From the NCBI GenBank assembly GCA_964556185.1, contig CAZKVI010000005.1, positions 1-53,936 on the forward strand: a stretch of DNA of 53,936 bases. The letters are read 5' to 3'. Below, in pieces: positions 3,585 to 50,533 of the stretch. Made by a program: the position numbers and the translations under genes. Position 1 is the stretch's first letter. Every line of letters starts with the position of its first letter. Under the pieces are notes generated by a model, which ran no database searches, was not told the origin of the DNA, and was given only the letters and a program-made list of their open reading frames with translations. This DNA is from an uncultured Methanosarcinales archaeon. Its GTDB lineage: Archaea > Nanobdellota > Nanobdellia > Woesearchaeales > DSVV01.

Positions 3585-4898
3585 ATGTATGAAATTATCT
3601 TAGGAAGGGGACAAAAAGATAAGGAAAAATTAGGTGACAAAGGAGCTGTTTTTCTAGGTAAACAATATGTAAAAATGGGTCAAACTACTTCATTATCTAA
3701 TGAAGTGTTCATGGATATGGTTAGAAGCCATGTTGTCTATATTTGCGGTAAAAGAGGTTCTGGAAAGTCTTATACAATGGGTGTTATGGCAGAAGGTATG
3801 GCAAGTTTGCCTCCTGAAGTTAAGAATAATCTTAGTATTATTCTTTTAGATACAATGGGAATTTATTGGACAATGAAATATGCAAATAAAAAAGAAGATT
3901 ATTTGCTTAAAGAATGGGGTATTGAAGCAAAACCTTTAGATGTTCAAATTTATACACCTCATCAATTTCATAAAGAGTATGCTGAAAAAGGTATTCCAAC
4001 TGATTTTCCATTTTCAATTAAACCAGCTGAGTTAAATCCTGCTGATTGGTGTTTGAGTTTTGAGGTTACTACAATGCATCCAATGGGTGTGTTAGTTGAA
4101 AGAGTAATAAATAGACTAAAAGAAAAAGGCGATGATTTTGATATTGATGATATTATAAAAGAAGTTCAACAAGATACAAAAAGTGAACAACATGTAAAAG
4201 ATGCAACTGAAAATAGATTTTTGAGTGCAAACTCTTGGGGAATTTTTTCAAAAGAAGGAACAGCATTAAAAGAGTTGTCTAAAGGTGGACAAGTTACTGT
4301 TTTAGATATGAGTTGTTATGCAACTAAAGCAGATGGATGGAAAATTAAGGCATTAGTTGTTGGTTTAATTGCAGAGAAATTATTTTTAGAAAGAATGGTT
4401 GCAAGAAAAGCAGAAGAATATGAAGATATTCATGAAGCTGTTCATTATTTTACAAGTACTGAGAAAAAAGAAAATTTTCCAATGGTTTGGTTGGTTTTAG
4501 ATGAAGCACATGAGTTATTGCCGCGCGAGGGAAAGACTGCTGCAACAGATGCATTAGTTACAATATTAAGAGAAGGTAGACAACCAGGTATAAGTTTAAT
4601 CTTGGCAACGCAGCAACCGGCTAAGATACATACAGATGTTATGACACAGGCAGATATTGTAATTAGTCATAGAATTACTGCAAGATTAGATACAGATGCA
4701 TTAGCAATGATAACACAAACATGGATGAGGGAGGGTTTGGATAAAGCTATGGAAATATTGCCGAGAGTAAAGGGTGCTGCAGTTGTATTTGATGATGTTA
4801 ATGAAAGAATTTATCCAATGAGAATAAGACCAAGGTTTACATGGCATGGTGGCGAAGCTCCTTTAGCAGTTAGTGAGAAAAAGAGTGAATTATTTTGA
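3585..4898 (+). CDS. HerA/FtsK-superfamily P-loop ATPase (DUF87/COG0433-like)
   Basis: Walker A is CGKRGSGKSYT and Walker B is MVWLVLDEAHELL. It also has ILATQQP and a C-terminal RPRFTWHGG tail, both typical of HerA-like ATPases. No NurA partner is seen nearby. Confidence 0.7.
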   Translation: MYEIILGRGQKDKEKLGDKGAVFLGKQYVKMGQTTSLSNEVFMDMVRSHVVYICGKRGSGKSYTMGVMAEGMASLPPEVKNNLSIILLDTMGIYWTMKYANKKEDYLLKEWGIEAKPLDVQIYTPHQFHKEYAEKGIPTDFPFSIKPAELNPADWCLSFEVTTMHPMGVLVERVINRLKEKGDDFDIDDIIKEVQQDTKSEQHVKDATENRFLSANSWGIFSKEGTALKELSKGGQVTVLDMSCYATKADGWKIKALVVGLIAEKLFLERMVARKAEEYEDIHEAVHYFTSTEKKENFPMVWLVLDEAHELLPREGKTAATDALVTILREGRQPGISLILATQQPAKIHTDVMTQADIVISHRITARLDTDALAMITQTWMREGLDKAMEILPRVKGAAVVFDDVNERIYPMRIRPRFTWHGGEAPLAVSEKKSELF

Positions 4899-5893: not shown

Positions 5894-5915
5894 CAATATT
5901 GATCCATATATGAGT

Positions 5916-5929
5916 AAAAGTTATAAATT
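5916..5929 (+). promoter_or_regulatory. BRE/TATA-like box upstream of the pta operon
   Basis: The sequence is aaaagttataaatt. It is followed by an SD-like aaaggtga (5960-5967) 4 nt before ATG 5972. Confidence 0.4.
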
Positions 5930-5971
5930 CTAGTATATTAGTCTGTTTTATTGATAATTAAAGGTGATTAT

Positions 5972-6961
5972 ATGGTAGATCTATTAAAATTAGCTAAGAA
6001 AAAGGCAGTAGAAAAAGAACAAATTGTTATAATTCCAGAAGGTTGGGACGAAAGAGTGTTGAAAGCAGTTGATAAGGTGTTAAAGGAAGGTCTTTGTAAG
6101 GTTATTTTACTTGGAGATGAAGATGAGATTAAAGGGAAGTGTAAATCTGGTGGATTTGATATTGGCGATACAGAGATTTACAATCCAAAAACTTCAGAAT
6201 TAAGAGAAAAGTTTGCTCAAGTTTTGTTTGAGAAAAGAAAACATAAAGGAATGACATTGGAAAAAGCAACTAAGTTAATTAGAAATGAGAATTATTTTGC
6301 AATGGTTATGCTTGATCAAGGTTATGGTGGGGCAGTGGCTGGAAGTTGCATTTGTAGTACAGCGGATTTAATGAGGCCTGCATTACAAGTTATTGGAGCT
6401 AGAGAAAAAGGTAAATTAGTTACAAGTGCTTCTATTATGATTGATAAGGATAATAATAGAGTAATTGCAAGTGGTGATGATTCAATTGTTATTGATCCAA
6501 CACCAGAACAAAGAGCTGATATTGGTTTTGAGATTGCAAATATGGTAAAAGGGTTTGGAATTGATCCAAAAGTTGCATTTTTATCTCATTCTACAAATGG
6601 TTCTGGAGAACATCCAATTTTAGAACCGATTCGAGAAAGTATTAAGATTTTTAGAGAGAAGTGGCCAAAGATTCCTTGTGCAGAAATGGAAATGCAAGCA
6701 GATGCTGCAATTAATCCAGATGCATGTAAGAAAAAATGGCCAGAGAGTAAAGTTGTTCATGGAGATGCAAATGTATTAGTGTTTCCAAATATATTGGTGG
6801 GAAATGTTGTTGGACATTTGATGATGCAGTTAGTTGAGAGAGAATTTGTTTTTATGACTCTTGGAATGAGAAAACCTGTACAAGTAATGGGAAGAAGCTC
6901 TCCATGGGAAAGGATTTATGATGTTCTTATATTGGCAGCTGCACAAGCTAATATGGGATAA
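5972..6961 (+). CDS. pta: Phosphate acetyl/butyryl-transferase (PTA_PTB family)
   Basis: Full-length resemblance to short Pta: IIPEGWDERVLKA, RKHKGMT, YFAMVMLDQGYGGAVAGS, LMRPALQVIG, VAFLSHSTNGSG, QADAA, LVFPNILVGNV. The ORF track begins at TTG 5951, but ATG 5972 with an SD is preferred. Confidence 0.85.
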   Translation: MVDLLKLAKKKAVEKEQIVIIPEGWDERVLKAVDKVLKEGLCKVILLGDEDEIKGKCKSGGFDIGDTEIYNPKTSELREKFAQVLFEKRKHKGMTLEKATKLIRNENYFAMVMLDQGYGGAVAGSCICSTADLMRPALQVIGAREKGKLVTSASIMIDKDNNRVIASGDDSIVIDPTPEQRADIGFEIANMVKGFGIDPKVAFLSHSTNGSGEHPILEPIRESIKIFREKWPKIPCAEMEMQADAAINPDACKKKWPESKVVHGDANVLVFPNILVGNVVGHLMMQLVEREFVFMTLGMRKPVQVMGRSSPWERIYDVLILAAAQANMG

Positions 6962-6995
6962 GTGTGTATTGAATTAGTGTTTTAAGGAGATTGTA

Positions 6996-8471
6996 ATGGA
7001 ACAACGAATTTTAGAATTATTAAAGAAGAAATGGTATTTTCAAGGGTTTAATGGAACACCGGGATTATTAAATGGTGCTACATGGTCTGCTGTTAGAGAC
7101 ATGCATGAAGTTCTTGGTTATGGTTATAGTGCAATAATTACGTTTTATGAAGGAGATAAATGTTATTTTCTTTATGGTTGGGAAGATTTGTATGCAATAT
7201 TAGATAATTTGCTTAAGAAGGTTAGAAAAGATAGTGGATATCTTAAGTTTTTGCTTGATAAAGATGAAGAAATTTGTAAAGATGTTTTGGAATTTTATGA
7301 AAAGATTAATTGTGGTGGGTTGAGTAAGCTTAGTGATGAGGAAATTGGTGAGTTGTATAAAAAAGTTAATTTGAAGTATTCTTATTTACTTGGTGTTTCT
7401 CATATGATTGAAGGATTTACACAAACTACTGAAGATAAAATTAGAGAACTTGTCGAGAGAAATGAGAAGAAAAGTGGAAAAGAATTGATGAAAGTATTGA
7501 TTTCTCCTGTTAGTCATTCTTTTATGAGTATTGAACATAATAAATTGTATAAAATTGTTAATGAGGTAAAAAAGTTAGGCATCTCTGTTGTTGATGATAA
7601 AGTATTGGAGAATGTTGAAGTTAGGAAAATGATTGAAGATCACAGAGATTCTTATTATTGGAAGAATAATGGTTTTTCTTGTGTAAAAATTCTAGGCACT
7701 AGTGATTTTGTTAATGAGATCAATGAAATTATTGAAAAAGATGTTGATGTCGACGAGAAAATTAATGAGTTTGAAGCTATTAGTGGAAATAGTGATAGGA
7801 AAGAGAAAGTTTTGGAATTGGTTGGTGATAGTGAGTTAACTGAAATGATTGAGATTAATGATGTTATATTTAGAATTCATGATAGAAGAAAAGAACATAT
7901 GACTATTTCTCTTCATTATTTGAATTTATTACATGAAGAAGCTGCAAGGCGGTTTAATGTAGATGTTGAATTAGTGAGGTTTGCGAGAGTTGATGAGTTA
8001 GCTAAAGTTGGTGAGATGGTTGACGAATTAAAGCTACGGAGAGAGAAAAGTGTATTTGTGTTTTTTCCAGATAATGAATATGCTTTTACTGGTGATGTTG
8101 CAGATGAATATATTCGTGAATTAACTAAGCAAAGGGATGTTCAGATTGATGATGTAATAAAAGGTAATGGTGCATCGCTTGGGAAAGTTAAAGGTAAAGT
8201 TAAGATTTGTCGAGGAGTTGAAGAAATATCTAAAATGGAAGATGGTTGTGTTTTAGTAGCATGTATGACTCAACCTGAGTTTGTACCTGCGATGAAAAAA
8301 GCTGTTGCAGTTATTACAGACGAAGGTGGATTGACTTGTCATGCAGCTATAATTAGTAGGGAATTAGGAATTCCATGTGTTATTGGTACAAAAAATGCTA
8401 CACAAGTTTTAAAAGATGGTGAAATTGTTGAAGTAGATGCTGATAATGGTGTTGTGAAGGTATTAAAATGA
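6996..8471 (+). CDS. Paralogue 1: ~380-aa unassigned N-terminal domain plus a C-terminal PEP-utilising-enzyme mobile (swivel phospho-His) domain
   Basis: The C-terminus is CVLVACMTQPEFVPAMKKAVAVITDEGGLTCHAAIISRELGIPCVIGT. The N-terminal landmarks are KKWYFQG and YYWKNNGF. No GGKxxNL ATP-grasp opening motif or PEP/pyruvate TIM-barrel domain is visible. Confidence 0.8.
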   Translation: MEQRILELLKKKWYFQGFNGTPGLLNGATWSAVRDMHEVLGYGYSAIITFYEGDKCYFLYGWEDLYAILDNLLKKVRKDSGYLKFLLDKDEEICKDVLEFYEKINCGGLSKLSDEEIGELYKKVNLKYSYLLGVSHMIEGFTQTTEDKIRELVERNEKKSGKELMKVLISPVSHSFMSIEHNKLYKIVNEVKKLGISVVDDKVLENVEVRKMIEDHRDSYYWKNNGFSCVKILGTSDFVNEINEIIEKDVDVDEKINEFEAISGNSDRKEKVLELVGDSELTEMIEINDVIFRIHDRRKEHMTISLHYLNLLHEEAARRFNVDVELVRFARVDELAKVGEMVDELKLRREKSVFVFFPDNEYAFTGDVADEYIRELTKQRDVQIDDVIKGNGASLGKVKGKVKICRGVEEISKMEDGCVLVACMTQPEFVPAMKKAVAVITDEGGLTCHAAIISRELGIPCVIGTKNATQVLKDGEIVEVDADNGVVKVLK

Positions 8472-9934
8472 AAGAATACAATGAAATATTGGATATTTTG
8501 AAAAAAGAGAAGTTTTGGGGAGAAGGATGTCCTGTTAGATTACAATTATTCCATTATATAATGCAGTGTTTTGTAAATAATGAATCAATTTTAGGAAAGC
8601 CTGCTTTGACTTATTCATTTGATGGATATAAAGAAGGTGTTGTAGCTGAGATAACACCTTGGCAAGAGAAGTATGATTTATTTGAAGAGTTATTTGAGAA
8701 ATCTAAAAAAAATAATGATTATCTTAGGAAGTTTGTAAAACCATTCTGGAGATTGAAAGAAGAAGTAAGAGGGGTTCATGAAGAAACTATGAATGTTGAG
8801 TTGAGTGAACTCTCTGACGATGATTTAGCTAACTTATATAAGAAATTACATAAAGTTTTGTATGAGTTTGTGATTTATGGGACTTATTTTGAAATTGTTG
8901 ACCCATATTCTGAAACCATGGCTGAAAAATTGAAGAAAAAGTATGATTTAGAAGGTAAAGATGTTGCTGGAATGGTTGTAACATTGTCTACACCTGAAAA
9001 AAGGAGTTTTTTAACACAAGAAAAGATGGATTTTGCTAAACTGTGTTTAGGGAAAATTAGTGTTAGGGATTTTCATAAAAAATATTTCTGGATGGATTCC
9101 ACTTACAAAGATGCTCCTGAATTAACTCAAAATGAGATTAAAAAAAGGGTTGAGAAAGAGTTAAATGAGAAGAGTAAACTAGAGCTTGAGAATGAAATTA
9201 GAGGAACAATAAGATATGAATATGATTTAGTAAAGAAGAAAGAGGAAATAATTAATGAAATTGGTTTGGATGAAGATGATAAATTGTTATTTTCTTTGAT
9301 TGCGGAGCTTGGTAGATTAATTGATAAAAGAAAAGTTGGTATGATGACTGGAAATTATTCAAAATACCATATTATTGCAGAGATTGCTAGAAGAAAGGAG
9401 ATTGCATTGGATGATTTGATGTTTTTTACAGAAGAAGAGACAATTAAATTTTTGTTGAGTGGAGAAGTTGATATTAATGAGATTTTGAAACGTAAAGGAT
9501 TGTGTTTTATTTATAATGCACCAGGAGAAGAACAAATTTTTGTTGGTGATGAAGCTAAGGAATTGTATGAAGTATATATGAAGAACATTTTAGGAGAAGA
9601 TTTCAAGGGAAATGTTACATATGATCCAGGAGAAAAGGTTATAGGGAAAGTATGTAGAGTGATTAATACAAAAATTGATAAATTTGAGGAAGGGAGCATA
9701 TTAGTTACAACAATGACAAGACCTGATTTTATGCCTTTAATGAGAAAAGCTAAGGCTGTTATTACAGACGAAGGTGGATTGACTTGTCATGCAGCAATTG
9801 TTTCGAGGGAGATGAAGATTCCTTGTATTGTTGGAACAAAGATTGGAACTAAAATGCTTAAGACTGGAGACGTAGTTGAGATGAATTTTTGTTTAGGAAA
9901 AGTTCATAAAGTTAAAGGAAAAGATGAAGAATAA
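8468..9934 (+). CDS. Paralogue 2 of the swivel-His-domain family
   Basis: The C-terminus is ILVTTMTRPDFMPLMRKAKAVITDEGGLTCHAAIVSREMKIPCIVGT. The start overlaps the stop of paralogue 1 (ATGA at 8468-8471). Confidence 0.8.
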   Translation: MKEYNEILDILKKEKFWGEGCPVRLQLFHYIMQCFVNNESILGKPALTYSFDGYKEGVVAEITPWQEKYDLFEELFEKSKKNNDYLRKFVKPFWRLKEEVRGVHEETMNVELSELSDDDLANLYKKLHKVLYEFVIYGTYFEIVDPYSETMAEKLKKKYDLEGKDVAGMVVTLSTPEKRSFLTQEKMDFAKLCLGKISVRDFHKKYFWMDSTYKDAPELTQNEIKKRVEKELNEKSKLELENEIRGTIRYEYDLVKKKEEIINEIGLDEDDKLLFSLIAELGRLIDKRKVGMMTGNYSKYHIIAEIARRKEIALDDLMFFTEEETIKFLLSGEVDINEILKRKGLCFIYNAPGEEQIFVGDEAKELYEVYMKNILGEDFKGNVTYDPGEKVIGKVCRVINTKIDKFEEGSILVTTMTRPDFMPLMRKAKAVITDEGGLTCHAAIVSREMKIPCIVGTKIGTKMLKTGDVVEMNFCLGKVHKVKGKDEE

Positions 9935-9961
9935 ATTAAAGATTGATGGGGTTGATAAAAA

Positions 9962-11431
9962 ATGGTTATAGATTTACAAAAGTTTGCTAAAGAAAGATGG
10001 TATTTTCAAGGTATTAATGCAGTACCTGCATTTATTCATGCTGGGCCTGTTTCTGCAATATTTGTAATGAAAGACTCCCTTGGTTTTAATTATTCAAAGT
10101 TTATGCTAGTTTTCAAGAATGATTTTTGTGATTATGTGTACAATAGGGAAGATTTGCATAATGTAGCTGATAATATTGTTAAGAGATATAAAAAAGATAA
10201 AAATTATACAAAATTTCTTTTAGATAAAAGTCTTGAGGAGGCAAAACCATTTTTAGAACATATAAAAAAAGTGGTTCCAAAAATAAAAGAGATGACTGAT
10301 GAAGAATTATTGAATAATTATAAAGAATTCTCAGAAATATTTTATTCTATTTTTGGGGCCTCCCATAGTGTAGAAGGATTTTCTTTAACAAGCGATGTTT
10401 TAATTAAAGATATGTTAATGAAGACTTTACAGGAAAAAGGACTTGATGATAAATTTACTGAATATTTTAATTTATTAATGCAACCAACTAGGTCTACTTT
10501 TAATTTAGAATCAAATAATATGATGCATAGGATGATTGAATTGTATAAAGAGGACGAGAAGGGTAAAAAATTGGGGAAATTAATTGATAAGTATGTGGAA
10601 AAGTTTTATTGGATAAAATATTCTTGGATTGGTGGGGAAAGAATTACTAAAGAGAATGTTTTGGAAGAGATTAAAGAACATATTGAAAAGAATGATGAAA
10701 TTAAGCACATTGATGAGGAAGAATTACAAAAAAACAAAGAGAAAAAGAGAAAGCTTTGCAAGGAGCTGGATCTAAATGAAGAATTAATGATGTATTTAGA
10801 TATAACAGAATTTATGGCATATTGGCAAGATGATAGAAAGATAAATATTCTTATGGGTGTTTGTGTATTCCAAGATTATGTTGATGAGCTATCCAAAAGA
10901 AGCGGGATAAAAGGAGAGAATCTGAAATATATGCTCCCTGATGAAATTGAAAGTTTTGAAGACTTTGATGAGGAAGAACTTAAGTTGAGGAGAAAAGGTA
11001 GTGCTTTTTTATATGTTGATAGTGAAAGGGAAATTTTATCTGGGGAAAAGTTTGAAGATTTTGAAAAAATGCTAGCAAAGGAAGGAAAAGAAGATGATGT
11101 TAAAGAAGTATGTGGCATGTGTGCTTCTGTTGGGAAAGCAGTTGGTAAAGTAAAAGTTTGTTTAACAATGGATGATCTAAAAAAACTTGAAGAAGGAGAT
11201 GTTTTAGTTACAACAATGACAAGACCTGAATTTTTCCAAGCAATGAAAACTGCTGCTGCATTTGTTACAGACGAAGGAGGGTTGACTTGCCATGCAGCAA
11301 TTGTAGCTAGAGAATTTAATAAACCATGCATAATTGCGACTAAGAACGCCACTAAATTATTAAAAGATGGTGATTTAGTAGAAGTAAATGCTAATCATGG
11401 TGTTGTAAAAGTTATAAAGGATGAGGAATAA
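9962..11431 (+). CDS. Paralogue 3 of the swivel-His-domain family
   Basis: The C-terminus is VLVTTMTRPEFFQAMKTAAAFVTDEGGLTCHAAIVAREFNKPCIIAT. The N-terminal ERWYFQG aligns with paralogue 1. Confidence 0.8.
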   Translation: MVIDLQKFAKERWYFQGINAVPAFIHAGPVSAIFVMKDSLGFNYSKFMLVFKNDFCDYVYNREDLHNVADNIVKRYKKDKNYTKFLLDKSLEEAKPFLEHIKKVVPKIKEMTDEELLNNYKEFSEIFYSIFGASHSVEGFSLTSDVLIKDMLMKTLQEKGLDDKFTEYFNLLMQPTRSTFNLESNNMMHRMIELYKEDEKGKKLGKLIDKYVEKFYWIKYSWIGGERITKENVLEEIKEHIEKNDEIKHIDEEELQKNKEKKRKLCKELDLNEELMMYLDITEFMAYWQDDRKINILMGVCVFQDYVDELSKRSGIKGENLKYMLPDEIESFEDFDEEELKLRRKGSAFLYVDSEREILSGEKFEDFEKMLAKEGKEDDVKEVCGMCASVGKAVGKVKVCLTMDDLKKLEEGDVLVTTMTRPEFFQAMKTAAAFVTDEGGLTCHAAIVAREFNKPCIIATKNATKLLKDGDLVEVNANHGVVKVIKDEE

Positions 11432-11445
11432 GTTGAGGGAATTAA

Positions 11446-12903
11446 ATGAAGAAAGTCAATTGGTGGATCTGGGAAAGACCTGCATCATTATTCTGGACAT
11501 ATACTGCTGCATGTAGTGCAGCCTATCCTTTAGTTAAAATATACGGAACTTGTTATGCAGATAGAATCTATGGCTTTTTTAGGAATGGAATAGTTAGATG
11601 GATGTGTGATATGGATCAGTTGGTTGCAAATGGTAAAAAAGTTATTCCGGTTCTTAGTAAAGAAGAGGAGTTTGAGAAAAAAGAAGTTATTAGAAAAGAC
11701 TGGGAAGAAAAGTTAAAAGCATTTTATAGGGGAATTGAGAATGCGACGCTTGCTGAGATGGATGATGCTGAACTATTGAAACTTCTCAATGATTTTGATT
11801 ATACATATAGAGAATGGTGGGGAGTAACTCAAGTAGCTGAGCTAGTTGCTTATGGTGGGGAAGATATTCTTAAAGAAAGATTGACAGAAGACCAATTTAA
11901 AGAATATTTTAGTATTCTTGTTACACCAACAAAAAGATCATATACTAATGAAGAAGAGGATGAAATATTTGAAATAGTGAAACTAGCTAAAGAAAAAGGG
12001 ATTGATGAAGTTAAAAATGAGATAAAAAAGCATGCACGAAAATATTATTGGTTGCAGAATAATTTTCATGATACAAAAATATTAGATGATGGATATTTTA
12101 TTGATGTTGTGAAAAAACATTTAGAAAGTGGTGTTGACGTCGATAAATTAAGAGAAGATAATGAAAAAAGACTAGAAAGAGTGAAAAAAGAGAAAGAGGA
12201 AATAATGAATGAGTTAGATTTTGATGATAAGTTAAGAAAATTAGTGTGGTTAATTGATGAATTCTGTTATCTTCAGGATTTAAGAAAGTCAATTGACATG
12301 CAGGCAAATGGTTATTTTGCAGATATATGTAGAGAAGTTTCTATACGTAAAGAAATAGATTTTGATTTATTAAGATGTGCTGTACCTGATCAAATAAGAG
12401 CTCTTTTGTCTGGGAAAGACTTAGAAGAAGAAGTATTTAGAAAACAGAAAGAACATTGTGTAATTATATTCAATGATAAAGATTATAGCTCAGAAGTTTA
12501 TGGTGGAAAAGAAGCAGAAGAAAAGGAAAAAGAAATACTTGGAGAAGATATTGATTTAAGAGCAAAAACAGAGATAGAAGGAATGTGTGCAAGCACAGGA
12601 AGATATACTGGAAAAGTAAGAAAGATATTGAATGCAAGAGATGTAGGCAAATTACAAGAAGGTGAAGTTCTTGTTGCTACAATGACTTCTCCTGATTTAG
12701 TTACAGCTATGAAAAAAGCAGGTGCAATTGTAACAGATGAAGGTGGAATTACTTCTCATGCTGCAATTGTTAGTCGAGAATTAGGTATACCTTGTGTAAT
12801 TGGTACTAAAATTGCCACAAAGGTTTTAAAAGATGGTGATTTAGTTGAAATTAAGGCAAATCATGGACTTATAAAAATTATCCAGAAATGGGAAGGGGAT
12901 TAA
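11446..12903 (+). CDS. Paralogue 4 of the swivel-His-domain family (Ser replaces Cys before the His)
   Basis: The C-terminus is VLVATMTSPDLVTAMKKAGAIVTDEGGITSHAAIVSRELGIPCVIGT. The mid-protein KYYWLQNNF corresponds to the YYWKNN landmark. Confidence 0.8.
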   Translation: MKKVNWWIWERPASLFWTYTAACSAAYPLVKIYGTCYADRIYGFFRNGIVRWMCDMDQLVANGKKVIPVLSKEEEFEKKEVIRKDWEEKLKAFYRGIENATLAEMDDAELLKLLNDFDYTYREWWGVTQVAELVAYGGEDILKERLTEDQFKEYFSILVTPTKRSYTNEEEDEIFEIVKLAKEKGIDEVKNEIKKHARKYYWLQNNFHDTKILDDGYFIDVVKKHLESGVDVDKLREDNEKRLERVKKEKEEIMNELDFDDKLRKLVWLIDEFCYLQDLRKSIDMQANGYFADICREVSIRKEIDFDLLRCAVPDQIRALLSGKDLEEEVFRKQKEHCVIIFNDKDYSSEVYGGKEAEEKEKEILGEDIDLRAKTEIEGMCASTGRYTGKVRKILNARDVGKLQEGEVLVATMTSPDLVTAMKKAGAIVTDEGGITSHAAIVSRELGIPCVIGTKIATKVLKDGDLVEIKANHGLIKIIQKWEGD

Positions 12904-12904
12904 T

Positions 12905-14023
12905 ATGGTAAATAATATTAAGAAAGATATAAAGTTGTTTTTGAAGGATGTTAAAAAAGGACAGAATAAGAAAAGAGTTATTGAGTTTAAGGTGGATAAA
13001 GTTATGCATCCTAAAAATATGTTTCTTTGTTATTTTAGGAAGTTGTGTTTTATTGTTTTGGGTAAGGTTCCGCCAAGTAGAATCAAAAATAATATTACAA
13101 GAATGTTAGGGGTAAAGCTTGGAAAGGATGTTTGTTTACCAATGGATGTACTATTTGATCATGTTTATCCTGAGTTGATAAGTGTTAAAAAAGATACAAT
13201 AGTTGGTGGGTATTCTCAATTATGGGCACATGAGTTTAAGGATGGAAAGTTGAAGATTGGTAAAGTAGATGTTGGTAAAGAAGCATTAGTTTGTGGTGCA
13301 TGTACTGTGGCTCCTGGAGCAGAGATAGGTGATGGTGCTTTAATTGGTGGTTGGAGTTATATGGAAGGGAAAGCTAAGGCATATGAATTTTGGGGAGGTA
13401 CACCTTGTAGATTTCTAAAAAAATTACCAGAAGATTGGAATTATATTGATAGAAGCAATCCACGAAATTATTACAAAGAGAGTAGAAAAGTAATAAAAGA
13501 ATATATTGATGATCCAAAAAGAACAGAAACATTTCATGTTATGTATAAAGGTTCTAGAGGAAATGCTGGATGTGATTGGTATTTAGTTAGATCAACAACT
13601 CGAATTTGGCTAACTGCTGCATGGATTGAATTTTGTAACTTTTTTCCTGCTTGCGGATTGAAGAATTTCTTATTAAGGTTTACTGGTGTGAAAATAGGTA
13701 AAGGTGTAAAGATTCCAATTGGAGGAAGATTTGATCATATTTATCCAGAACTCATAACAATTGGAGATAATGTAGTAATTGAAAAGATGGCTTATGTTGG
13801 AAGTCATGATTTTACAAATAATAGATCAACTGTTGGAAGAATTAGTATTGGGAAGAATACAATAGTTGGTAGTGGAAGTGCTGTTCAAGCAGGCATAAGT
13901 GTTGGTGAGGATGTGATTATTGAACCACAAACATTTGTAAATAAAGATGTGCCTAGTAAAGCTTGTATCGGAGGTATACCTGGGAAAATAAAGAATCCTG
14001 AAGATGTTGAGACATCACTATAA
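12905..14023 (+). CDS. Internally duplicated left-handed beta-helix (hexapeptide-repeat, WcaF-like) acyltransferase
   Basis: There are two homologous halves: LGVKLGKDVCLPMDVLFDHVYPELISVKKDTIVGG and TGVKIGKGVKIPIGGRFDHIYPELITIGDNVVIEK. Each is followed by hexapeptide-like I/V-G-x repeats. The gene starts 1 nt after paralogue 4. Confidence 0.7.
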   Translation: MVNNIKKDIKLFLKDVKKGQNKKRVIEFKVDKVMHPKNMFLCYFRKLCFIVLGKVPPSRIKNNITRMLGVKLGKDVCLPMDVLFDHVYPELISVKKDTIVGGYSQLWAHEFKDGKLKIGKVDVGKEALVCGACTVAPGAEIGDGALIGGWSYMEGKAKAYEFWGGTPCRFLKKLPEDWNYIDRSNPRNYYKESRKVIKEYIDDPKRTETFHVMYKGSRGNAGCDWYLVRSTTRIWLTAAWIEFCNFFPACGLKNFLLRFTGVKIGKGVKIPIGGRFDHIYPELITIGDNVVIEKMAYVGSHDFTNNRSTVGRISIGKNTIVGSGSAVQAGISVGEDVIIEPQTFVNKDVPSKACIGGIPGKIKNPEDVETSL

Positions 14024-14090
14024 GATAAGTCATTAGTATATGTAATACAGGATAAACCACAGAAGCTAAAGCTTCTTGGTTTGCTAGCGC

Positions 14091-14102: not shown

Positions 14103-14124
14103 CCCTGTTTTTCTATTTTTGTTT

Positions 14125-15099
14125 ATGAAATATATATTAAGTATTATTATGATTGTTATTTTTCTATTTTTAAGTAGTTTTGTTTGTGCAAAAAATATTG
14201 ATTTAAATAGAGATGATTGTGTAGATGATAATGATTTAGATATATTGATTGCTAATTATGCATCAGAAGATTACGAGACATTTGATTTAGATGAAGATGG
14301 TGAAATTGATATCAATGACCATAGAATTATAAATTCTTACAAAAAGAAAGGGTCTTCAAAAGGTGTTTATATTTGTAATGGATTTGAATGTCATGATGAA
14401 GTTTGTAATGGCGAAGATGATGATTGTGATCTTATTGTTGATGAGGGATGTGAAGAACCAGAGGAAACATATTGTGAAAAAACAGATGAAAAAGATGTAT
14501 ATGTAAAAGGAGATATTGAAAGTGATGAGTTTCAAGGAAATGATTTTTGTTTTCTTAGAAAAGACCTAGATAATGAGAAAGAAGAAACCCATAATTGTAA
14601 AGGGGAGAACTGTTTTTTAGTTGAATATGATTGTAATAATGAAAATGAAGTAGATGAATTTTTATATGAATGTGAATATGGTTGTTGGGAAGGTGCTTGT
14701 ATAAATGCAGAATGTGAAACATTAGATGACATAGAGGTTGACTTTTCAGAAGATCTTTGTGATTTTGCAATTGATGATTGTGGCTATTCATATGATTGGA
14801 TTAAAACAAGGTGTTGTGGTGATGATTCTAATGAATTTATTAGGTGTGATGAAACTGGTGAGTGTTTATGTTGTTTTAATCCAGAAGAAGAATATGTTAA
14901 TGGAAAATGTGATTTTATTGTAGAAGAAAGTGAAGAACAAAGTATAACAAAGAAATACAATGCTGATGTGCCCCTTATAATAGGTGCTGCATTATTATTG
15001 TTCGTGGTTGTTTTCTTAGCATTTATGGGCAAACCAAAAGATAAAGTTGTAAAGAAGAACGATAAAAGTAAGAAAAATACAAAGAAAGTAAAAAGTTAA
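14125..15099 (+). CDS. Secreted, C-terminally anchored cysteine-rich acidic protein with an N-terminal dockerin-like Ca-binding repeat pair
   Basis: The signal peptide is MKYILSIIMIVIFLFLSSFVCA. The dockerin/EF-hand-like repeats are DLNRDDCVDDNDLDIL and DLDEDGEIDINDHRII. Many Cys residues follow, then a C-terminal TM (LIIGAALLLFVVVFLAF) and a Lys-rich tail. The ORF track start at TTG 14119 was replaced by ATG 14125. Confidence 0.65.
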   Translation: MKYILSIIMIVIFLFLSSFVCAKNIDLNRDDCVDDNDLDILIANYASEDYETFDLDEDGEIDINDHRIINSYKKKGSSKGVYICNGFECHDEVCNGEDDDCDLIVDEGCEEPEETYCEKTDEKDVYVKGDIESDEFQGNDFCFLRKDLDNEKEETHNCKGENCFLVEYDCNNENEVDEFLYECEYGCWEGACINAECETLDDIEVDFSEDLCDFAIDDCGYSYDWIKTRCCGDDSNEFIRCDETGECLCCFNPEEEYVNGKCDFIVEESEEQSITKKYNADVPLIIGAALLLFVVVFLAFMGKPKDKVVKKNDKSKKNTKKVKS

Positions 15100-15364: not shown

Positions 15365-15820
15365 TTATTTACGTTTTATTAATTTAGATAATTCTTTTTC
15401 AAAACTTGATAAATCTGCAAATTCTCTATATACTGAAGCGAATCTTATGTATGCTACTTTATCTAGTTTTTTTAGTTTTTTCATAACTAGCTCCCCTACT
15501 GCCTTACTTGGTACTTCTGTAGAATCCATTTTTCTAATATCAGCTTCAATTTCATTTACAGTTGTTTCTATTTGATCCATTGTTATGTTTGTTTTTTCGC
15601 AGGCCCTTATAAATCCTTTTTTCAATTTATCTCTATCAAATTGTTCTCTTTTGCCATCTTTTTTAACAATAATAATATTAGAAGTTTCTACTCTTTCATA
15701 TGTTGTAAAACGTTTTTCACAATCAAGACATTCTCTTCTACGTCTAGTTACTACATAATCTTCTGTTTCTCTTTTATCAACAACTTTTGTACCTTGATTA
15801 CTACAATAAGGACATTTCAC
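15365..15820 (-). CDS. nrdR: NrdR-type transcriptional repressor (zinc ribbon plus ATP-cone)
   Basis: The zinc ribbon is MKCPYCS...RRRRECLDCEKRFTTYERVE. An ATP-cone follows: VKKDGKREQFDRDKLKKG...VAYIRFASVYREF. Confidence 0.9.
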   Translation of the reverse strand: MKCPYCSNQGTKVVDKRETEDYVVTRRRRECLDCEKRFTTYERVETSNIIIVKKDGKREQFDRDKLKKGFIRACEKTNITMDQIETTVNEIEADIRKMDSTEVPSKAVGELVMKKLKKLDKVAYIRFASVYREFADLSSFEKELSKLIKRK

Positions 15821-15824
15821 TTAA

Positions 15825-16511
15825 TCACCCTTTATTTTTAGATTTTTTGTAATTTAAATGTTTTCTCAAAAATAAACCAGTTCCTAAATAGAAAATTGCA
15901 CAGATTGATGAGTGGATAAATATTGATATTGTAAAGTCTTTGAAGAATTGTTCTGGATAGAGATTTATTAGATTATCTGTGTTTGGGTTTAAAAGCCAGA
16001 GATCGTTTGTGAAAAAGATTTTGTGGAATAAAAAGAATAACTTTGGGAAGATTGGTGAGAGTACTGCTGCTAAGGCCAGGAGTATTAGGATTGATGAACC
16101 TGTGTAGATTATGATTTTGCTTAGTTTTTGTATTCCATATAGTTTACAATAGATTATTGTTAGCATGGTTAGTAGAATTCCTATTATGTAGTATGTTAAG
16201 ATTGTTTTGTTTATTAGATTTCTTACATCGATCATGTGTAATTTGTCTTTTTCACTAAAAAAGTCTGTGCCTATTGTGTCTGTATTTGATTTCATGTAAT
16301 CCCACAATGCAAATGTGTTTTTCCAGGTTTCAAGTTTGTCAAATTTAGTGTAGATATTGTTTTTTTCATATTCATTGTTGTAAAAGTCGATGTCATATAT
16401 TAAAGATTTAAAATGGAATAGAAATGTTGAGATTATTAGAAGGATTACAATTGTTGTGAATAAGATTGTTTTGATTTTTGTGTTTTTTATTGCTTTTGTT
16501 TTTTTATGCAT
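15825..16511 (-). CDS. Integral membrane protein (DUF1461-like topology, function unknown)
   Basis: An N-terminal TM and a ~70-aa loop are followed by 3-4 further TM helices. The start overlaps the ABCE1 stop by 8 nt. Confidence 0.6.
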   Translation of the reverse strand: MHKKTKAIKNTKIKTILFTTIVILLIISTFLFHFKSLIYDIDFYNNEYEKNNIYTKFDKLETWKNTFALWDYMKSNTDTIGTDFFSEKDKLHMIDVRNLINKTILTYYIIGILLTMLTIIYCKLYGIQKLSKIIIYTGSSILILLALAAVLSPIFPKLFFLFHKIFFTNDLWLLNPNTDNLINLYPEQFFKDFTISIFIHSSICAIFYLGTGLFLRKHLNYKKSKNKG

Positions 16512-49819: not shown

Positions 49820-50533
49820 AACTTTAACTCTTCCTGGTTTTATTTCAAAGATTTCTCCTTGTTCAAGAAGACTTTTAACTTGTTTTTCACTATTTTTTGA
49901 ATGTTGAGCAAGATCTTCAATAAATACTCCTTCTCCTTTGTCAAGTTTTCTTATTGTTTCGATAATATCTTCTTCGTTTTCTTGCGATTGAGTATTTTCT
50001 GTTGGGGTATTTAGGGGAGGGGTTTCTGTGTTAGATATTTCAATAACTTCTGTTTCCTCTGCAAATTCTTCTTGAGGTGTTGAGGTGTTTATTGTTGTTT
50101 TTGGTTGAGGCATTTTAGAAAGTAACACTTTTCTATGTTCTACCCATTCTGGATTTTGTATTTTTTTCATAATCTCTGGAACAAGATACATTTCAGAACC
50201 AAATTCTCTTGGTCTCCCTATTAATATGACGAGGTCACCTATTTGTATATTTTGAAAGAGTTCTTTGTCAAAGATTCTAGCAGATATTTTTGCAGTACCG
50301 TCGTCGACAATGAAAGATTTAAATGTTGGGTCTTCTGTAATTGATACAACTGCTGCAATAATGTTAATTCTAGATACATTTCTACCGTCTTGGAGAATTA
50401 CATAATTTGGTTCAAACTCCCCTGGACTTTTTTCATATTTGCCATTTTGTAGGCTTTCAGCTGTTACAACATATGCTGTTTGTCTTTCTCTAAATTTTGC
50501 TGATGAATCCACGTTTTGGTTCAAATAAATCAC
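49811..50533 (-). CDS. RPA32-like single-stranded-DNA-binding protein (OB fold plus C-terminal winged helix)
   Basis: The OB-like core is INIIAAVVSI...FIVDDGTAKISARIF...IQIGDLVILIGRPREF. An acidic linker follows, then the wH-like IIETIRKLDKGEGVFIEDLAQHS...VKSLLEQGEIFEIKPGRVKVL. Its 5' end overlaps the mcm 3' end by 44 nt. Confidence 0.6.
   Translation of the reverse strand: MIYLNQNVDSSAKFRERQTAYVVTAESLQNGKYEKSPGEFEPNYVILQDGRNVSRINIIAAVVSITEDPTFKSFIVDDGTAKISARIFDKELFQNIQIGDLVILIGRPREFGSEMYLVPEIMKKIQNPEWVEHRKVLLSKMPQPKTTINTSTPQEEFAEETEVIEISNTETPPLNTPTENTQSQENEEDIIETIRKLDKGEGVFIEDLAQHSKNSEKQVKSLLEQGEIFEIKPGRVKVLE

What the first reader, a model, noticed from the sequence alone, without database searches (positions are those of the whole stretch)
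5951..14023. Operon of Pta, four tandem orphan swivel-His-domain paralogues and a duplicated hexapeptide acyltransferase
**Operon structure (seen).**
- Six co-oriented genes are packed with gaps of 34, -4 (ATGA overlap at 8468-8471), 27, 14 and 1 nt.
- One BRE/TATA-like box precedes them and a hairpin-like element follows them.

**The four central paralogues (seen).**
- The four central proteins (485-491 aa) are full-length paralogues of each other.
- All end in a ~100-aa PEP-utilising-enzyme mobile domain with the phospho-histidine loop TDEGG(L/I)T(C/S)HAAI.
- They share an unassigned ~370-380-aa N-terminal region. Its landmarks are WYFQG, L(S/T)D(E/D)EL..LYK, (K/Y)YW..N and D.RK.
- The N-terminal regions are far more diverged than the swivel domains.

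**Established background.**
- In PpsA, PPDK, PTS enzyme I and rifampin phosphotransferase, this swivel domain shuttles phosphate between an ATP-grasp domain and a second catalytic or substrate domain on the same polypeptide.

**What is unusual (seen).**
- By eye, neither the GGK..NL-type ATP-grasp opening nor a PEP/pyruvate TIM-barrel is present.
- The phospho-carrier therefore appears four times without its usual donor.
- The flanking genes are Pta (acyl-CoA to acyl-phosphate) and an acyl-CoA-type LbH transferase with an internal duplication.

**Inference.** This may be a multi-substrate phosphotransfer or modification system. Each paralogue would carry a different substrate-binding module, comparable to an RPH lacking its ATP-grasp. 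The phosphoryl donor would be supplied in trans or through acyl-phosphate chemistry. I know of no characterised system with this gene set.
Basis: partly seen in the sequence, partly recalled or inferred. Interest (0 to 1): 0.8.

Follow-up and report, generated by a model that had tools for sequence, protein, structure and literature searches.

The report
Split dikinase array with Pta and acyltransferase
This archaeal operon encodes four different substrate-binding, phosphate-carrying halves of a split ATP-dependent kinase related to the rifampin-inactivating enzyme, and it belongs to a large uncharacterised family of such gene arrays found almost only in ultra-small symbiotic bacteria and archaea.

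Summary
Six co-oriented genes lie exactly as described: a Pta-family gene, four 485-491-aa paralogues and an internally duplicated hexapeptide acyltransferase.

The "unassigned" N-terminal region of each paralogue is homologous to the rifampin-binding domain of rifampin phosphotransferase (RPH). Each paralogue is therefore RPH minus its ATP-grasp, the same layout as the HpeH/CreH/PpsA subunit of known two-component small-molecule dikinases. The catalytic His and an acceptor-site D-x-R-K motif are conserved.

The window has no ATP-grasp gene. In related genomes, one stand-alone ATP-grasp (PPDK_N) gene often caps such an array, there is never more than one, and ATP-grasp/unit fusions exist.

Across 81 loci from DPANN archaea and CPR bacteria, tandem arrays of up to 13 anciently diverged paralogues are the rule. 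Pta/Ptb-fold enzymes, LbH acyltransferases and HAD phosphatases recur beside them.

Most likely, one trans-encoded ATP-grasp subunit charges many substrate-specific carrier subunits. The substrates are unknown. The Pta lacks the canonical Ser309/Asp316 residues. I rate this a new variant of a known kind, widespread and not described in the papers I could search.

The parts
5914..5928 (+). BRE/TATA-like box (GTAAAA GTTATAAAT) upstream of pta
   Evidence: Read directly from the sequence. It lies about 45 nt upstream of the ATG at 5972. Not validated; the sigma-70 scan is uninformative for an archaeon.
5951..6961 (+). Pta-family phosphate acyltransferase; likely true start is the ATG at 5972, giving 329 aa
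   Evidence: PF01515 E 1e-75. Full-length match to B. subtilis Pta 1td9, E 1e-55. Below the NCBIfam pta cut-offs (223 vs 311 bits). MtPta Ser309 is Gly and Asp316 is Arg here.
6996..8471 (+). Paralogue 1 (491 aa): RPH-type substrate-binding domain (residues 1 to about 380) plus phospho-His swivel domain (about 385-491; His449)
   Evidence: PF00391 E 4e-27. AF2 model pLDDT 94, pTM 0.91. Foldseek top hits RPH-Lm 5fbt/5fbu/5hv1. Orthologues at 59% in L001, 55% in L007 and 46-49% in CPR loci.
8468..9934 (+). Paralogue 2 (488 aa), same architecture; ATGA overlap with paralogue 1
   Evidence: PF00391 E 1e-23. Motifs IDKRK and TDEGGLTCHAAI. Orthologues at 68% in L001 and 57% in L013.
9962..11431 (+). 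Paralogue 3 (489 aa), same architecture
   Evidence: PF00391 E 6e-25. Motifs QDDRK and TDEGGLTCHAAI. Orthologues at 74% in L001 and 57% in L013.
11446..12903 (+). Paralogue 4 (485 aa), same architecture
   Evidence: PF00391 E 1e-25. The NCBIfam PigC model aligns over residues 214-478. Motifs QDLRK and TDEGGITSHAAI. Best relatives are in L041 (57%), L044 (55%) and L013 (51%), with none in L001.
12905..14023 (+). Tandem-duplicated left-handed beta-helix (hexapeptide) acyltransferase, 372 aa
   Evidence: Hexapep E 2e-11. NCBIfam best hit is heptaprenylglyceryl-phosphate O-acetyltransferase in two stretches, 150 bits against a cut-off of 300. The halves are 30% identical, E 2e-21. PDB hits are maltose/galactoside O-acetyltransferases and Vat. 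Relatives L012 and L018 have two separate genes of about 200 aa instead.
14061..14076 (.). Perfect 7-bp-stem hairpin after the last gene, followed by a T-rich tract (14105-14124)
   Evidence: Sequence feature only.

Best explanation
The four paralogues are substrate-specific 'acceptor plus carrier' subunits of a split RPH-type small-molecule dikinase. They have the same layout as HpeH, CreH and PpsA.

Proposed steps:
1. A separate ATP-grasp subunit of about 310 aa (HpeI/PpsB-like, closest to the PEP synthase ATP-grasp) binds ATP.
2. It pyrophosphorylates the swivel His (His449 in paralogue 1). ATP ends up as AMP plus Pi, leaving His~P.
3. The swivel domain swings back onto its own N-terminal domain.
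4. There the D-x-R-K site hands the phosphoryl group to a bound small molecule.

Each paralogue binds a different acceptor. One ATP-grasp subunit serves all of them. In this genome it must be encoded outside the 54-kb window.

The Pta-fold enzyme and the duplicated LbH acyltransferase are accessory enzymes of the same pathway and act on the products or on acyl groups.

Shown here: the domain homology, the conserved catalytic residues, the array structure and the recurrent partners.
Inferred: the ATP-grasp partner in this genome, the ATP to AMP stoichiometry, distinct substrates, and the roles of Pta and LbH.
For: Architecture.
- The four-paralogue profile matches RPH over the rifampin-binding and swivel domains (E 3e-24).
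- The high-confidence AF2 model (pLDDT 94) has RPH-Lm as its top Foldseek hits over about 475 columns.
- The family's D296-x-R298-K299 motif aligns with the RPH Arg666/Glu667/Lys670 block, which is needed for the second phosphotransfer (PMC4844700).
- Conservation across 297 members: His449 296, D296 249, R298 262, K299 253.

ATP-grasp partner.
- A stand-alone PPDK_N gene lies in or at the edge of arrays in 27 non-redundant loci, always as a single copy.
- It is present in 8 of 16 multi-copy arrays that are bounded on both sides.
- Reciprocally, all 3 sampled archaeal PPDK_N genes are adjacent to arrays.
- Fused ORFs join the ATP-grasp to family units: L071 769 aa, L045 1166 aa, L065 1667 aa, L073 2374 aa.
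- The closest reference-genome relative, L007, has the order paralogue, LbH, alpha/beta-hydrolase-like, DxDxT family, ATP-grasp.

Distinct specificities.
- Within-array identity has a median of 30%.
- Subfamilies defined at 40% identity or more almost always contribute one member per locus and are conserved across genomes and domains.
- The swivel domain, which would dock on a shared partner, is conserved at 44-58%, against 21-28% for the N-domain.

Precedent. HpeHI, CreHI and PpsAB are biochemically characterised two-component dikinases with this split (PMC12167813).
Against: - No PPDK_N gene or remnant exists in the 54-kb window (tblastn E 0.12 or worse; hmmsearch E above 1). None is seen in the syntenic relative L001 either.
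- Half of the bounded multi-copy arrays lack a local ATP-grasp gene, so a different donor cannot be excluded.
- No substrate is known for any member.
- The swivel domain is closer to PEP synthase than to RPH or HpeH. It keeps the PEPS-type Thr two residues before the His, where RPH and HpeH have Met (PMC12167813). This is therefore a separate branch, and its behaviour may differ.
- The Arg of D-x-R-K is offset by three positions from RPH Arg666 in the HMM alignment.
Confidence: 0.62

Rival explanations
1. The system works without an ATP-grasp. The swivel His would be charged by an acyl phosphate made by the Pta-family enzyme from acyl-CoA, or by another phospho-metabolite. Alternatively, the paralogues only shuttle phosphate between small molecules (X-P + Y gives X + Y-P) without ATP.
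For: - No ATP-grasp in the window or in L001.
- Pta is the first gene of the operon, and Pta/Ptb-fold genes recur in arrays of both domains.
- HpeH alone catalyses phosphotransfer between two phenolic substrates (PMC12167813).
Against: - Pta and the ATP-grasp gene co-occur in the same arrays (L012, L018, L086), so Pta does not replace it.
- Most arrays have no Pta.
- The array-linked Ptas lack Ser309 and mostly lack Asp316.
- ATP-grasp/unit fusions exist.
- From general bioenergetics, charging a His from acetyl phosphate is not favourable.
Confidence: 0.13
2. The mechanism is as in the best explanation, but the role is a xenobiotic or antibiotic inactivation battery. RPH-like kinases and a xenobiotic-acetyltransferase-like LbH enzyme would modify toxic small molecules from hosts or competitors.
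For: - The closest solved relative is an antibiotic kinase.
- The LbH protein gives weak hits to Vat, CatB and xenobiotic acetyltransferases.
- Large diversified arrays resemble detoxification gene families.
Against: - Paralogue subfamilies are old and conserved across domains rather than rapidly turning over.
- The recurrent partners are metabolic enzymes: phosphatases, Pta/Ptb, an OTCase-like protein, a malic enzyme and TrmB regulators.
- RIF-binding residues were not tested.
- The LbH best hits are sugar or lipid O-acetyltransferases, all below family cut-offs.
Confidence: 0.12
3. These are ordinary short PEP synthase/PPDK-like enzymes whose N-terminal region is a diverged ATP-grasp.
For: - Public annotations call homologues 'phosphoenolpyruvate synthase/pyruvate phosphate dikinase'.
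- The swivel domain is most similar to that of archaeal PEP synthase.
Against: - No PF01326 or PF02896 hit in any paralogue, even at E up to 1.
- The N-domain aligns to the RPH rifampin-binding domain, not to its ATP-grasp.
- The model is largely helical, with an alpha/beta arm, as in the RIF-binding domain.
- Real ATP-grasp genes are separate.
Confidence: 0.01
4. The paralogues are non-catalytic, for example regulatory or structural proteins that retain a swivel fold, like the extra C-terminal domain of some pyruvate kinases.
For: - Geobacillus and Staphylococcus pyruvate kinases carry a swivel-like domain (hits 2e28 and 3t05).
- No ATP-grasp lies nearby.
Against: - The His loop is almost invariant and the acceptor-site D-x-R-K is conserved across 297 diverse members.
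- The family is tightly linked to ATP-grasp genes.
Confidence: 0.03

Closest known systems
Two-component small-molecule dikinases: HpeHI (Rhodococcus), CreHI (Corynebacterium) and phenylphosphate synthase PpsAB (Thauera)
   Same: - Same split: one protein carries the RPH-type substrate-binding domain plus the C-terminal swivel His, and a separate protein of about 310-340 aa is the ATP-grasp (PMC12167813).
- The His loop is conserved.
   Different: - Those are one-to-one pairs, with H subunits of about 610-640 aa, acting in aromatic catabolism of free-living bacteria.
- Here the subunits are compact (about 490 aa) and occur as arrays of 2-13 anciently diverged paralogues per single ATP-grasp gene.
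- They are found in CPR bacteria and DPANN archaea, with Pta/Ptb-fold, LbH and HAD partners.
- The swivel and ATP-grasp are PEP-synthase-like (Thr two residues before the His; ATP-grasp 52-55% identical to that of archaeal PEP synthases).
- In this window the ATP-grasp gene is absent.
Rifampin phosphotransferase (RPH; PDB 5FBS/5FBT/5HV1)
   Same: - Closest solved structure over the whole protein, covering the rifampin-binding and swivel domains.
- The acceptor-site acidic/Lys block is conserved.
   Different: - RPH is a single chain of about 865 aa with a fused N-terminal ATP-grasp.
- Sequence identity is only about 15-18%.
- The substrate-binding domain here is about 50 aa shorter.
- Nothing here supports rifampin as a substrate.
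PigC/RedH prodigiosin ligases and other RPH-family enzymes
   Same: The NCBIfam PigC and RedH models align with paralogue 4 over residues 214-480, that is the substrate domain plus the swivel.
   Different: - They are single-chain enzymes with a fused ATP-grasp.
- All scores are far below the family cut-offs (89 vs 1300 bits).
PEP synthase / PPDK / PTS enzyme I
   Same: - The swivel phospho-His domain is shared; the best sequence match is archaeal PEP synthase 8a8e (E 5e-40 to 8.5e-50).
- One donor feeding many acceptor modules resembles PTS logic. This is an analogy only.
   Different: - No PEP/pyruvate TIM-barrel domain and no fused ATP-grasp.
- The acceptor domain has a different fold.
Fatty-acid kinase FakA/FakB with PlsX (analogy recalled from my own knowledge, not tested here)
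   Same: - One kinase module serves several substrate-binding proteins.
- The product is an acyl phosphate, which is handled by a phosphate acyltransferase of the Pta/PlsX superfamily.
   Different: - The kinase and binding proteins are unrelated folds.
- No evidence here shows that the substrates are carboxylates.

Membership tests
Two-component RPH-type small-molecule dikinase, H/A subunit (HpeH/CreH/PpsA-like) | C-terminal swivel phosphohistidine domain with the catalytic His in a GGxxxH loop | tested here: met
   PF00391 E 1e-23 to 4e-27 in all four paralogues. His449 is present in 296 of 297 family members.
Two-component RPH-type small-molecule dikinase, H/A subunit (HpeH/CreH/PpsA-like) | RIF-binding-domain-type substrate domain N-terminal to the swivel, with no ATP-grasp on the same chain | tested here: met
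   Profile vs PDB matches RPH 509-878 to query 122-482, E 3e-24. Foldseek top hit RPH-Lm, E 7.5e-13, 477 columns, TM 0.52-0.58. No PF01326 hit.
Two-component RPH-type small-molecule dikinase, H/A subunit (HpeH/CreH/PpsA-like) | Conserved phosphate-handling residues in the acceptor site (the RPH Arg666/Glu667/Lys670 block) | tested here: met
   D296 aligns with Glu667 and K299 with Lys670. R298 is invariant in the 91-sequence alignment but is offset from Arg666. Across 297 members the motif residues are 84-88% conserved. All four window paralogues have D-x-R-K.
Two-component RPH-type small-molecule dikinase, H/A subunit (HpeH/CreH/PpsA-like) | A cognate stand-alone ATP-grasp subunit (HpeI/CreI/PpsB-like) encoded in the genome | tested here: inconclusive
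   Absent from the 54-kb window. Present as a single gene in 27 related loci, and all 3 sampled ATP-grasp genes are array-adjacent. The rest of this genome is not available.
Two-component RPH-type small-molecule dikinase, H/A subunit (HpeH/CreH/PpsA-like) | ATP-dependent phosphorylation of a small molecule, with AMP and Pi as products | not testable with these tools
   Needs biochemistry.
PEP synthase / PPDK | N-terminal PPDK_N ATP-grasp and C-terminal PEP/pyruvate TIM barrel on the same chain | tested here: not met
   No PF01326 or PF02896 hit at E up to 1. The NCBIfam PEP_synth models align only to the swivel region, 97-135 bits against cut-offs of 598-740.
Rifampin phosphotransferase (single-chain RPH) | Fused N-terminal ATP-grasp domain, and score above the NCBIfam RPH cut-off | tested here: not met
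   NF041857 scores 46-70 bits against a cut-off of 999. No ATP-grasp domain.
Phosphate acetyltransferase (Pta, EC 2.3.1.8) | Full-length PTA_PTB fold | tested here: met
   PF01515 E 1e-75 over 15-330. Match to 1td9, E 1e-55, over 5-333.
Phosphate acetyltransferase (Pta, EC 2.3.1.8) | Score above the equivalog cut-off, and catalytic Ser309/Arg310/Asp316 (M. thermophila numbering; PMC9706017, PMC6461089) | tested here: not met
   TIGR00651 scores 223 bits against a cut-off of 311. Ser309 is Gly in all 9 array-linked Ptas. Arg310 is kept. Asp316 is Arg in the window and T/S/Q/I elsewhere; only L012 keeps Asp. Butyryl-specific PTB also lacks Asp316, so activity on another acyl group remains possible.
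Left-handed beta-helix (hexapeptide) acyltransferase | Hexapeptide repeats forming an LbH domain | tested here: met
   PF00132 E 2e-11 in 2 stretches. Two homologous halves. PDB hits are maltose/galactoside O-acetyltransferases. No specific NCBIfam family reaches its cut-off.
Known anti-phage defence systems (PADLOC) | Match of any operon protein to a defence-system model | tested here: not met
   No hits for the six operon proteins at E up to 0.01.

The most novel reading that the evidence does not exclude
The arrays would be a cross-domain scavenging hub of ultra-small symbionts. One ATP-grasp donor subunit, in a role like PTS enzyme I or FakA, charges many acceptor-specific carrier subunits. 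At least some of these convert scavenged carboxylates into acyl phosphates. The recurrent Pta/Ptb-fold enzymes turn those into CoA thioesters for LbH acyltransferases. This would be a previously unknown ATP-to-AMP route of carboxylate activation, spread between CPR bacteria and DPANN archaea by gene transfer.
Probability: 0.15. Interest if true: 0.85.

Novelty: new variant of a known kind. Interest (0 to 1): 0.62.

Why it matters
- **Large investment by small genomes.** CPR bacteria and DPANN archaea have genomes of roughly a megabase (from my own general knowledge) and very limited metabolism. Many still carry about 7-20 kb of tandem, anciently diverged dikinase subunits: the median is 5 units and the maximum 13 within the 20 kb fetched per locus.
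- **An unexplored biochemical question.** Finding out what these organisms phosphorylate could reveal how they capture or modify host-derived metabolites.
- **Misannotation affects metabolic models.** The genes are currently annotated as 'PEP synthase' or 'pyruvate, water dikinase', so gluconeogenesis may be wrongly inferred in metabolic reconstructions.
- **A new way to organise this enzyme class.** One ATP-grasp gene per many carrier genes would be a novel modular organisation.
- **Cross-domain exchange.** Fourteen paralogue subfamilies include both archaeal and bacterial loci, which documents gene flow between the two radiations.

Tried and rejected
1. **ATP-grasp in the window.** I ran tblastn with 24 stand-alone PPDK_N proteins and an unfiltered hmmsearch of a PPDK_N profile against all six frames. 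Nothing was found.
2. **UDP-GlcNAc 2-epimerase (PF02350) fusion as a substrate clue.** The 685-860-aa family members are simply two fused units. The PF02350 hits are below the cut-off and overlap the swivel domain, so they are spurious.
3. **Defence-system hypothesis.** No PADLOC match for any operon protein.
4. **Tracing the window's sample to find the partner gene.** The exact protein recurs in four metagenome contigs, always with pta upstream. That gives no route to the rest of the genome.
5. **Literature.** Five searches combining swivel or PF00391 terms with CPR/DPANN terms, or naming the dikinase families, found no description of these arrays. They returned only the RPH and HpeHI papers. 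The library lacks most subscription journals.
6. **Sigma-70 promoter scan.** Counts are at shuffle level (37 found vs 40.4 expected), and the scan is not appropriate for an archaeon.
7. **First iterated PPDK_N profile.** It picked up swivel domains through fused proteins and returned 410 hits. I rebuilt it from trimmed domains.

Full report
**1. Observation**

The intergenic distances are 34, -4, 27, 14 and 1 nt.

- Pfam gives PTA_PTB for the first ORF (E 1e-75). Each of the four central proteins has a single C-terminal PF00391 swivel domain (E 1e-23 to 4e-27). The last ORF has hexapeptide repeats.
- None of the four has a PPDK_N (PF01326) or PEP-utilizers_C (PF02896) hit, even at E up to 1.
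- The four proteins align end to end at 31-35% identity. The N-domain is 21-28% identical and the swivel domain 44-58%.
- The two halves of the LbH protein are homologous (30% identity, E 2e-21).
- A BRE/TATA-like AAAAGTTATAAAT (5916-5928) and a perfect hairpin (14061-14076) are present. These are sequence matches only.
- The pta start is more likely the ATG at 5972, preceded by GGTGA. Gene callers and homologues give 327-330 aa.
- The contig is archaeal: PolD DP1 and DP2, Orc1/Cdc6 and an archaeal MCM with an intein.

**2. What the paralogues are**

The "unassigned" N-terminal region is homologous to the rifampin-binding domain of rifampin phosphotransferase (RPH).

- A profile of the four paralogues matches the three RPH-Lm structures over query 122-482 and chain about 509-878 (E about 3e-24).
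- NCBIfam RPH, PigC and RedH models also align upstream of the swivel domain.
- An AlphaFold2 model of paralogue 1, built from 91 homologues, has mean pLDDT 94 and pTM 0.91.
- Its top six Foldseek hits in the PDB are RPH-Lm entries. The best three have E 7.5e-13 to 2.1e-12, 473-558 aligned columns and TM 0.52-0.58 normalised to the query. Every other hit covers only the swivel domain.

Each protein is therefore RPH without its ATP-grasp. This is the architecture of HpeH, CreH and PpsA, the larger subunits of characterised two-component small-molecule dikinases. In those systems a separate ATP-grasp protein (HpeI, CreI or PpsB) delivers the phosphoryl group (PMC12167813).

**3. Catalytic residues**

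- In the 91-sequence alignment the invariant residues are His449 with its loop, and D296, R298 and K299 in the N-domain.
- The HMM alignment to RPH places D296 on Glu667 and K299 on Lys670. Arg666, Glu667 and Lys670 form the phosphate-handling network of RPH. Arg666Ala and Glu667Ala abolish rifampin phosphorylation but not the ATP-side partial reaction (PMC4844700).
- Across 297 full-length members from 78 of the 81 non-redundant loci: His449 296/297, D296 249, R298 262, K299 253.
- All four window paralogues carry D-x-R-K and the His loop.
- The swivel domain is closer to archaeal PEP synthase (8a8e, E 5e-40 to 8.5e-50) than to RPH.
- The family keeps the PEPS-type Thr two residues before the His (263/297). 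HpeH and RPH have Met at that position (PMC12167813).

**4. The missing donor**

The window has no ATP-grasp gene or remnant. Related genomes do.

I scanned reference genomes with the four-paralogue alignment. With the loci fetched earlier, this gave 81 non-redundant loci. Almost all are titled as DPANN archaea or CPR/Patescibacteria. I mapped their genes with my own ORF and HMM pipeline.

- A stand-alone PPDK_N gene of about 310-330 aa lies in or at the edge of the array in 27 non-redundant loci. There is always exactly one.
- It is present in 8 of the 16 multi-copy arrays that are bounded on both sides within the fetched DNA.
- Examples: L009 has six units then the ATP-grasp gene. L025 has the ATP-grasp gene then seven units. 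L013 has six units in two blocks plus an end fragment, then LbH and the ATP-grasp gene. L018 has eight units, then Pta, the ATP-grasp gene and two LbH genes.
- L007, the closest reference-genome relative (55% identity), has the order paralogue, LbH, alpha/beta-hydrolase-like, DxDxT family, ATP-grasp gene.

The reciprocal test also holds. A search with the L013 ATP-grasp protein finds many such proteins of about 310 aa in Woesearchaeota and Nanoarchaeota. [quoted passage not shown] All three that I sampled on long contigs sit next to arrays. One of these is L086, a 1-Mb Woesearchaeota contig with the order unit, Pta, unit, unit, x, LMWPc, unit, unit, ATP-grasp.

Fused ORFs join the ATP-grasp to one or more family units. 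They are 769, 1166, 1667 and 2374 aa long.

The ATP-grasp and this family are therefore functionally linked. The window's array is one of the roughly half that lack a local copy.

**5. Array biology**

- Arrays are the rule. The median is 5 units per locus and the maximum 13. Of the 81 loci, 51 have at least 4 units and 21 have at least 8, within at most 20 kb of fetched flank.
- They are not recent duplications. Within-locus identity has a median of 30%, with a 90th percentile of 34%.
- The 297 proteins fall into 159 clusters at 40% identity or more. Clusters almost always contribute one member per locus, and 14 contain both archaeal and bacterial loci.
- Each window paralogue has closer relatives in other genomes than in its own operon:

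| Paralogue | Best relatives (identity) |
|---|---|
| 1 | L001 59%, L007 55%, CPR loci 46-49% |
| 2 | L001 68%, L013 57% |
| 3 | L001 74%, L013 57% |
| 4 | L041 57%, L044 55%, L013 51%; none in L001 |

- L001 has a different extra unit at the front of its array, so array composition shuffles.
- This pattern fits a battery of distinct, conserved specificities sharing one conserved docking domain.
- A search of 1.84 billion representative proteins with the N-domain alone finds 492 clusters. Nearly all are about 470-525 aa, with a few multi-unit fusions.

**6. Accessory genes**

- *Pta.* It lies in or next to arrays in 9 loci. Eight are archaeal and the ninth (L019) is titled Aminicenantes. It also occurs in L086.
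- *LbH.* It occurs in 13 loci, either as one fused gene or as two genes of about 200 aa.
- *Archaeal cassette.* The order LbH, alpha/beta-hydrolase-like (GHSxG), DxDxT phosphoserine-phosphatase-like gene recurs complete in L007, L014 and L030. It is followed by the ATP-grasp gene in L007 and by Pta in L014 and L030. Parts of it recur in L021, L058 and L029.
- *Phosphatases and regulators.* HAD phosphatases recur in 11 loci of both domains, and TrmB-type regulators in 12 archaeal loci.
- *CPR arrays.* A 281-aa family with no Pfam hit occurs in 7 loci. It is a Pta/Ptb-fold protein: hhalign against the Pta cluster gives 90.7% probability (E 1e-6), and its profile hits phosphate butyryltransferases and a branched-chain phosphotransacylase (E 5e-7 to 1e-5). 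An OTCase-like protein with a carbamoyl-phosphate-binding domain is in 6 CPR loci.
- *Meaning.* Enzymes that handle acyl phosphates therefore accompany the arrays in both domains, drawn from different branches of their superfamily.

The window's Pta is full length and similar to B. subtilis Pta (E 1e-55). It is nevertheless below the NCBIfam Pta cut-offs. All nine array-linked Ptas have Gly at M. thermophila Ser309. At the catalytic Asp316 position they vary, and the window has Arg (residue roles from PMC9706017 and PMC6461089). Butyryl-specific PTB also lacks Asp316 (PMC9706017). A different acyl specificity is therefore plausible, and a regulatory role cannot be excluded.

**7. Mechanism**

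*Best-supported model (confidence about 0.6).* A trans-encoded ATP-grasp subunit pyrophosphorylates the swivel His of each paralogue, with ATP converted to AMP and Pi. The swivel domain then returns to its own RPH-type domain. There the D-x-R-K site transfers the phosphoryl group to a paralogue-specific small molecule. Pta, LbH and, in relatives, HAD phosphatases process the products.

*What is shown and what is inferred.* Shown: the homology, the conserved residues and the genomic linkage. Inferred: the donor in this genome, the stoichiometry and the substrates.

*The acyl-phosphate-as-donor alternative.* It is disfavoured because Pta and the ATP-grasp gene co-occur (L012, L018, L086), most arrays lack Pta, and this Pta is atypical.

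*A more novel reading (about 0.15).* Some paralogues may phosphorylate carboxylates to acyl phosphates, which the Pta/Ptb-fold enzymes convert to CoA thioesters for the LbH transferase. This would be analogous to FakA/FakB with PlsX. It would explain the convergent Pta/Ptb association, but it is untested.

**8. Novelty and verdict**

Split RPH-type dikinases are known (PpsAB, CreHI, HpeHI). New here are:
- the many-to-one array organisation;
- the PEPS-like donor and carrier modules;
- the restriction to CPR and DPANN, with cross-domain sharing;
- the recurrent Pta/Ptb, LbH and HAD partners.

I found no description of this in the searchable literature, which is incomplete. Public annotations call these genes PEP synthase or pyruvate, water dikinase, and that is misleading.

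This is a new variant of a known kind, with interest about 0.6.

Noticed in passing
window 3585-4898 (+); L002, L005, L009, L033, L069: A HerA/DUF87-type ATPase lies two genes upstream of pta (Pfam DUF87 E 9e-17; PADLOC HerA/mad8 models). In five CPR loci a TraG/VirD4-like coupling ATPase sits directly upstream of the arrays. This could be coincidence or a real link to secretion or conjugation genes.
   Followed up: partly
window 50490-53828 (-): The archaeal MCM helicase gene is interrupted by an intein carrying LAGLIDADG and HTH_3 domains.
   Followed up: no
window 15365-15820 (-) and 15825-16511 (-): A bacterial-type NrdR repressor (Zn-ribbon plus ATP-cone) and a Lit lipoprotein intramolecular transacylase homologue lie on an archaeal contig. 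Both are conserved in the syntenic relative L001.
   Followed up: no
window 14119-15099 (+): A 326-aa Cys/Asp/Glu-rich protein with an N-terminal signal-like segment and a C-terminal hydrophobic segment, and no Pfam hit. A counterpart of 322 aa sits at the same position in L001.
   Followed up: no
L073:2691-9812, L065:3218-8218, L045:1-3498, L071:4934-7240; P0243 (1836 aa), P0301 (1500 aa): Giant uninterrupted ORFs fuse the ATP-grasp with several substrate-domain-plus-swivel units, up to 2374 aa with five swivel domains. They support the functional link. They may also be unusual multi-carrier enzymes.
   Followed up: partly
L046:12239-13081 and homologues in L033, L035, L051, L068, L074, L080: A 281-aa CPR family with no Pfam hit is a Pta/Ptb-fold protein. 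Its best PDB match is the uncharacterised 'methyltransferase' MTH_231 (9nzy, E 1.5e-20), followed by phosphate butyryltransferases.
   Followed up: yes
L027, L028, L041, L078, L079, L083; L009, L010, L039, L078, L081; L086:6572-7189 and 10942-12096: Other recurrent or notable array neighbours: an OTCase-like protein with a carbamoyl-phosphate-binding domain (6 CPR loci), a histidine-phosphatase-superfamily protein (5 CPR loci), and in L086 an LMW phosphatase-like gene plus a malic enzyme directly after the ATP-grasp gene.
   Followed up: partly
L007:3165-5065, L014:5520-7309, L030:14071-16063, L001:4966-6609: In archaeal arrays, LbH is typically followed by an alpha/beta-hydrolase-like protein (GHSxG; weak esterase/lipase hits) and a DxDxT protein weakly similar to phosphoserine phosphatase. 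The window lacks both.
   Followed up: partly
window 6001-14000: GC skew is unusually high (0.42-0.50) across the operon on the coding strand, against about 0-0.3 in most of the window. Regions 28-32 kb also reach 0.37-0.42. This probably reflects purine-rich codons for Lys/Glu/Asp-rich proteins.
   Followed up: no
window 10876-11352 (-): A 158-aa antisense ORF inside paralogue 3 is Ser-rich and low in complexity. It is most likely a shadow ORF.
   Followed up: no
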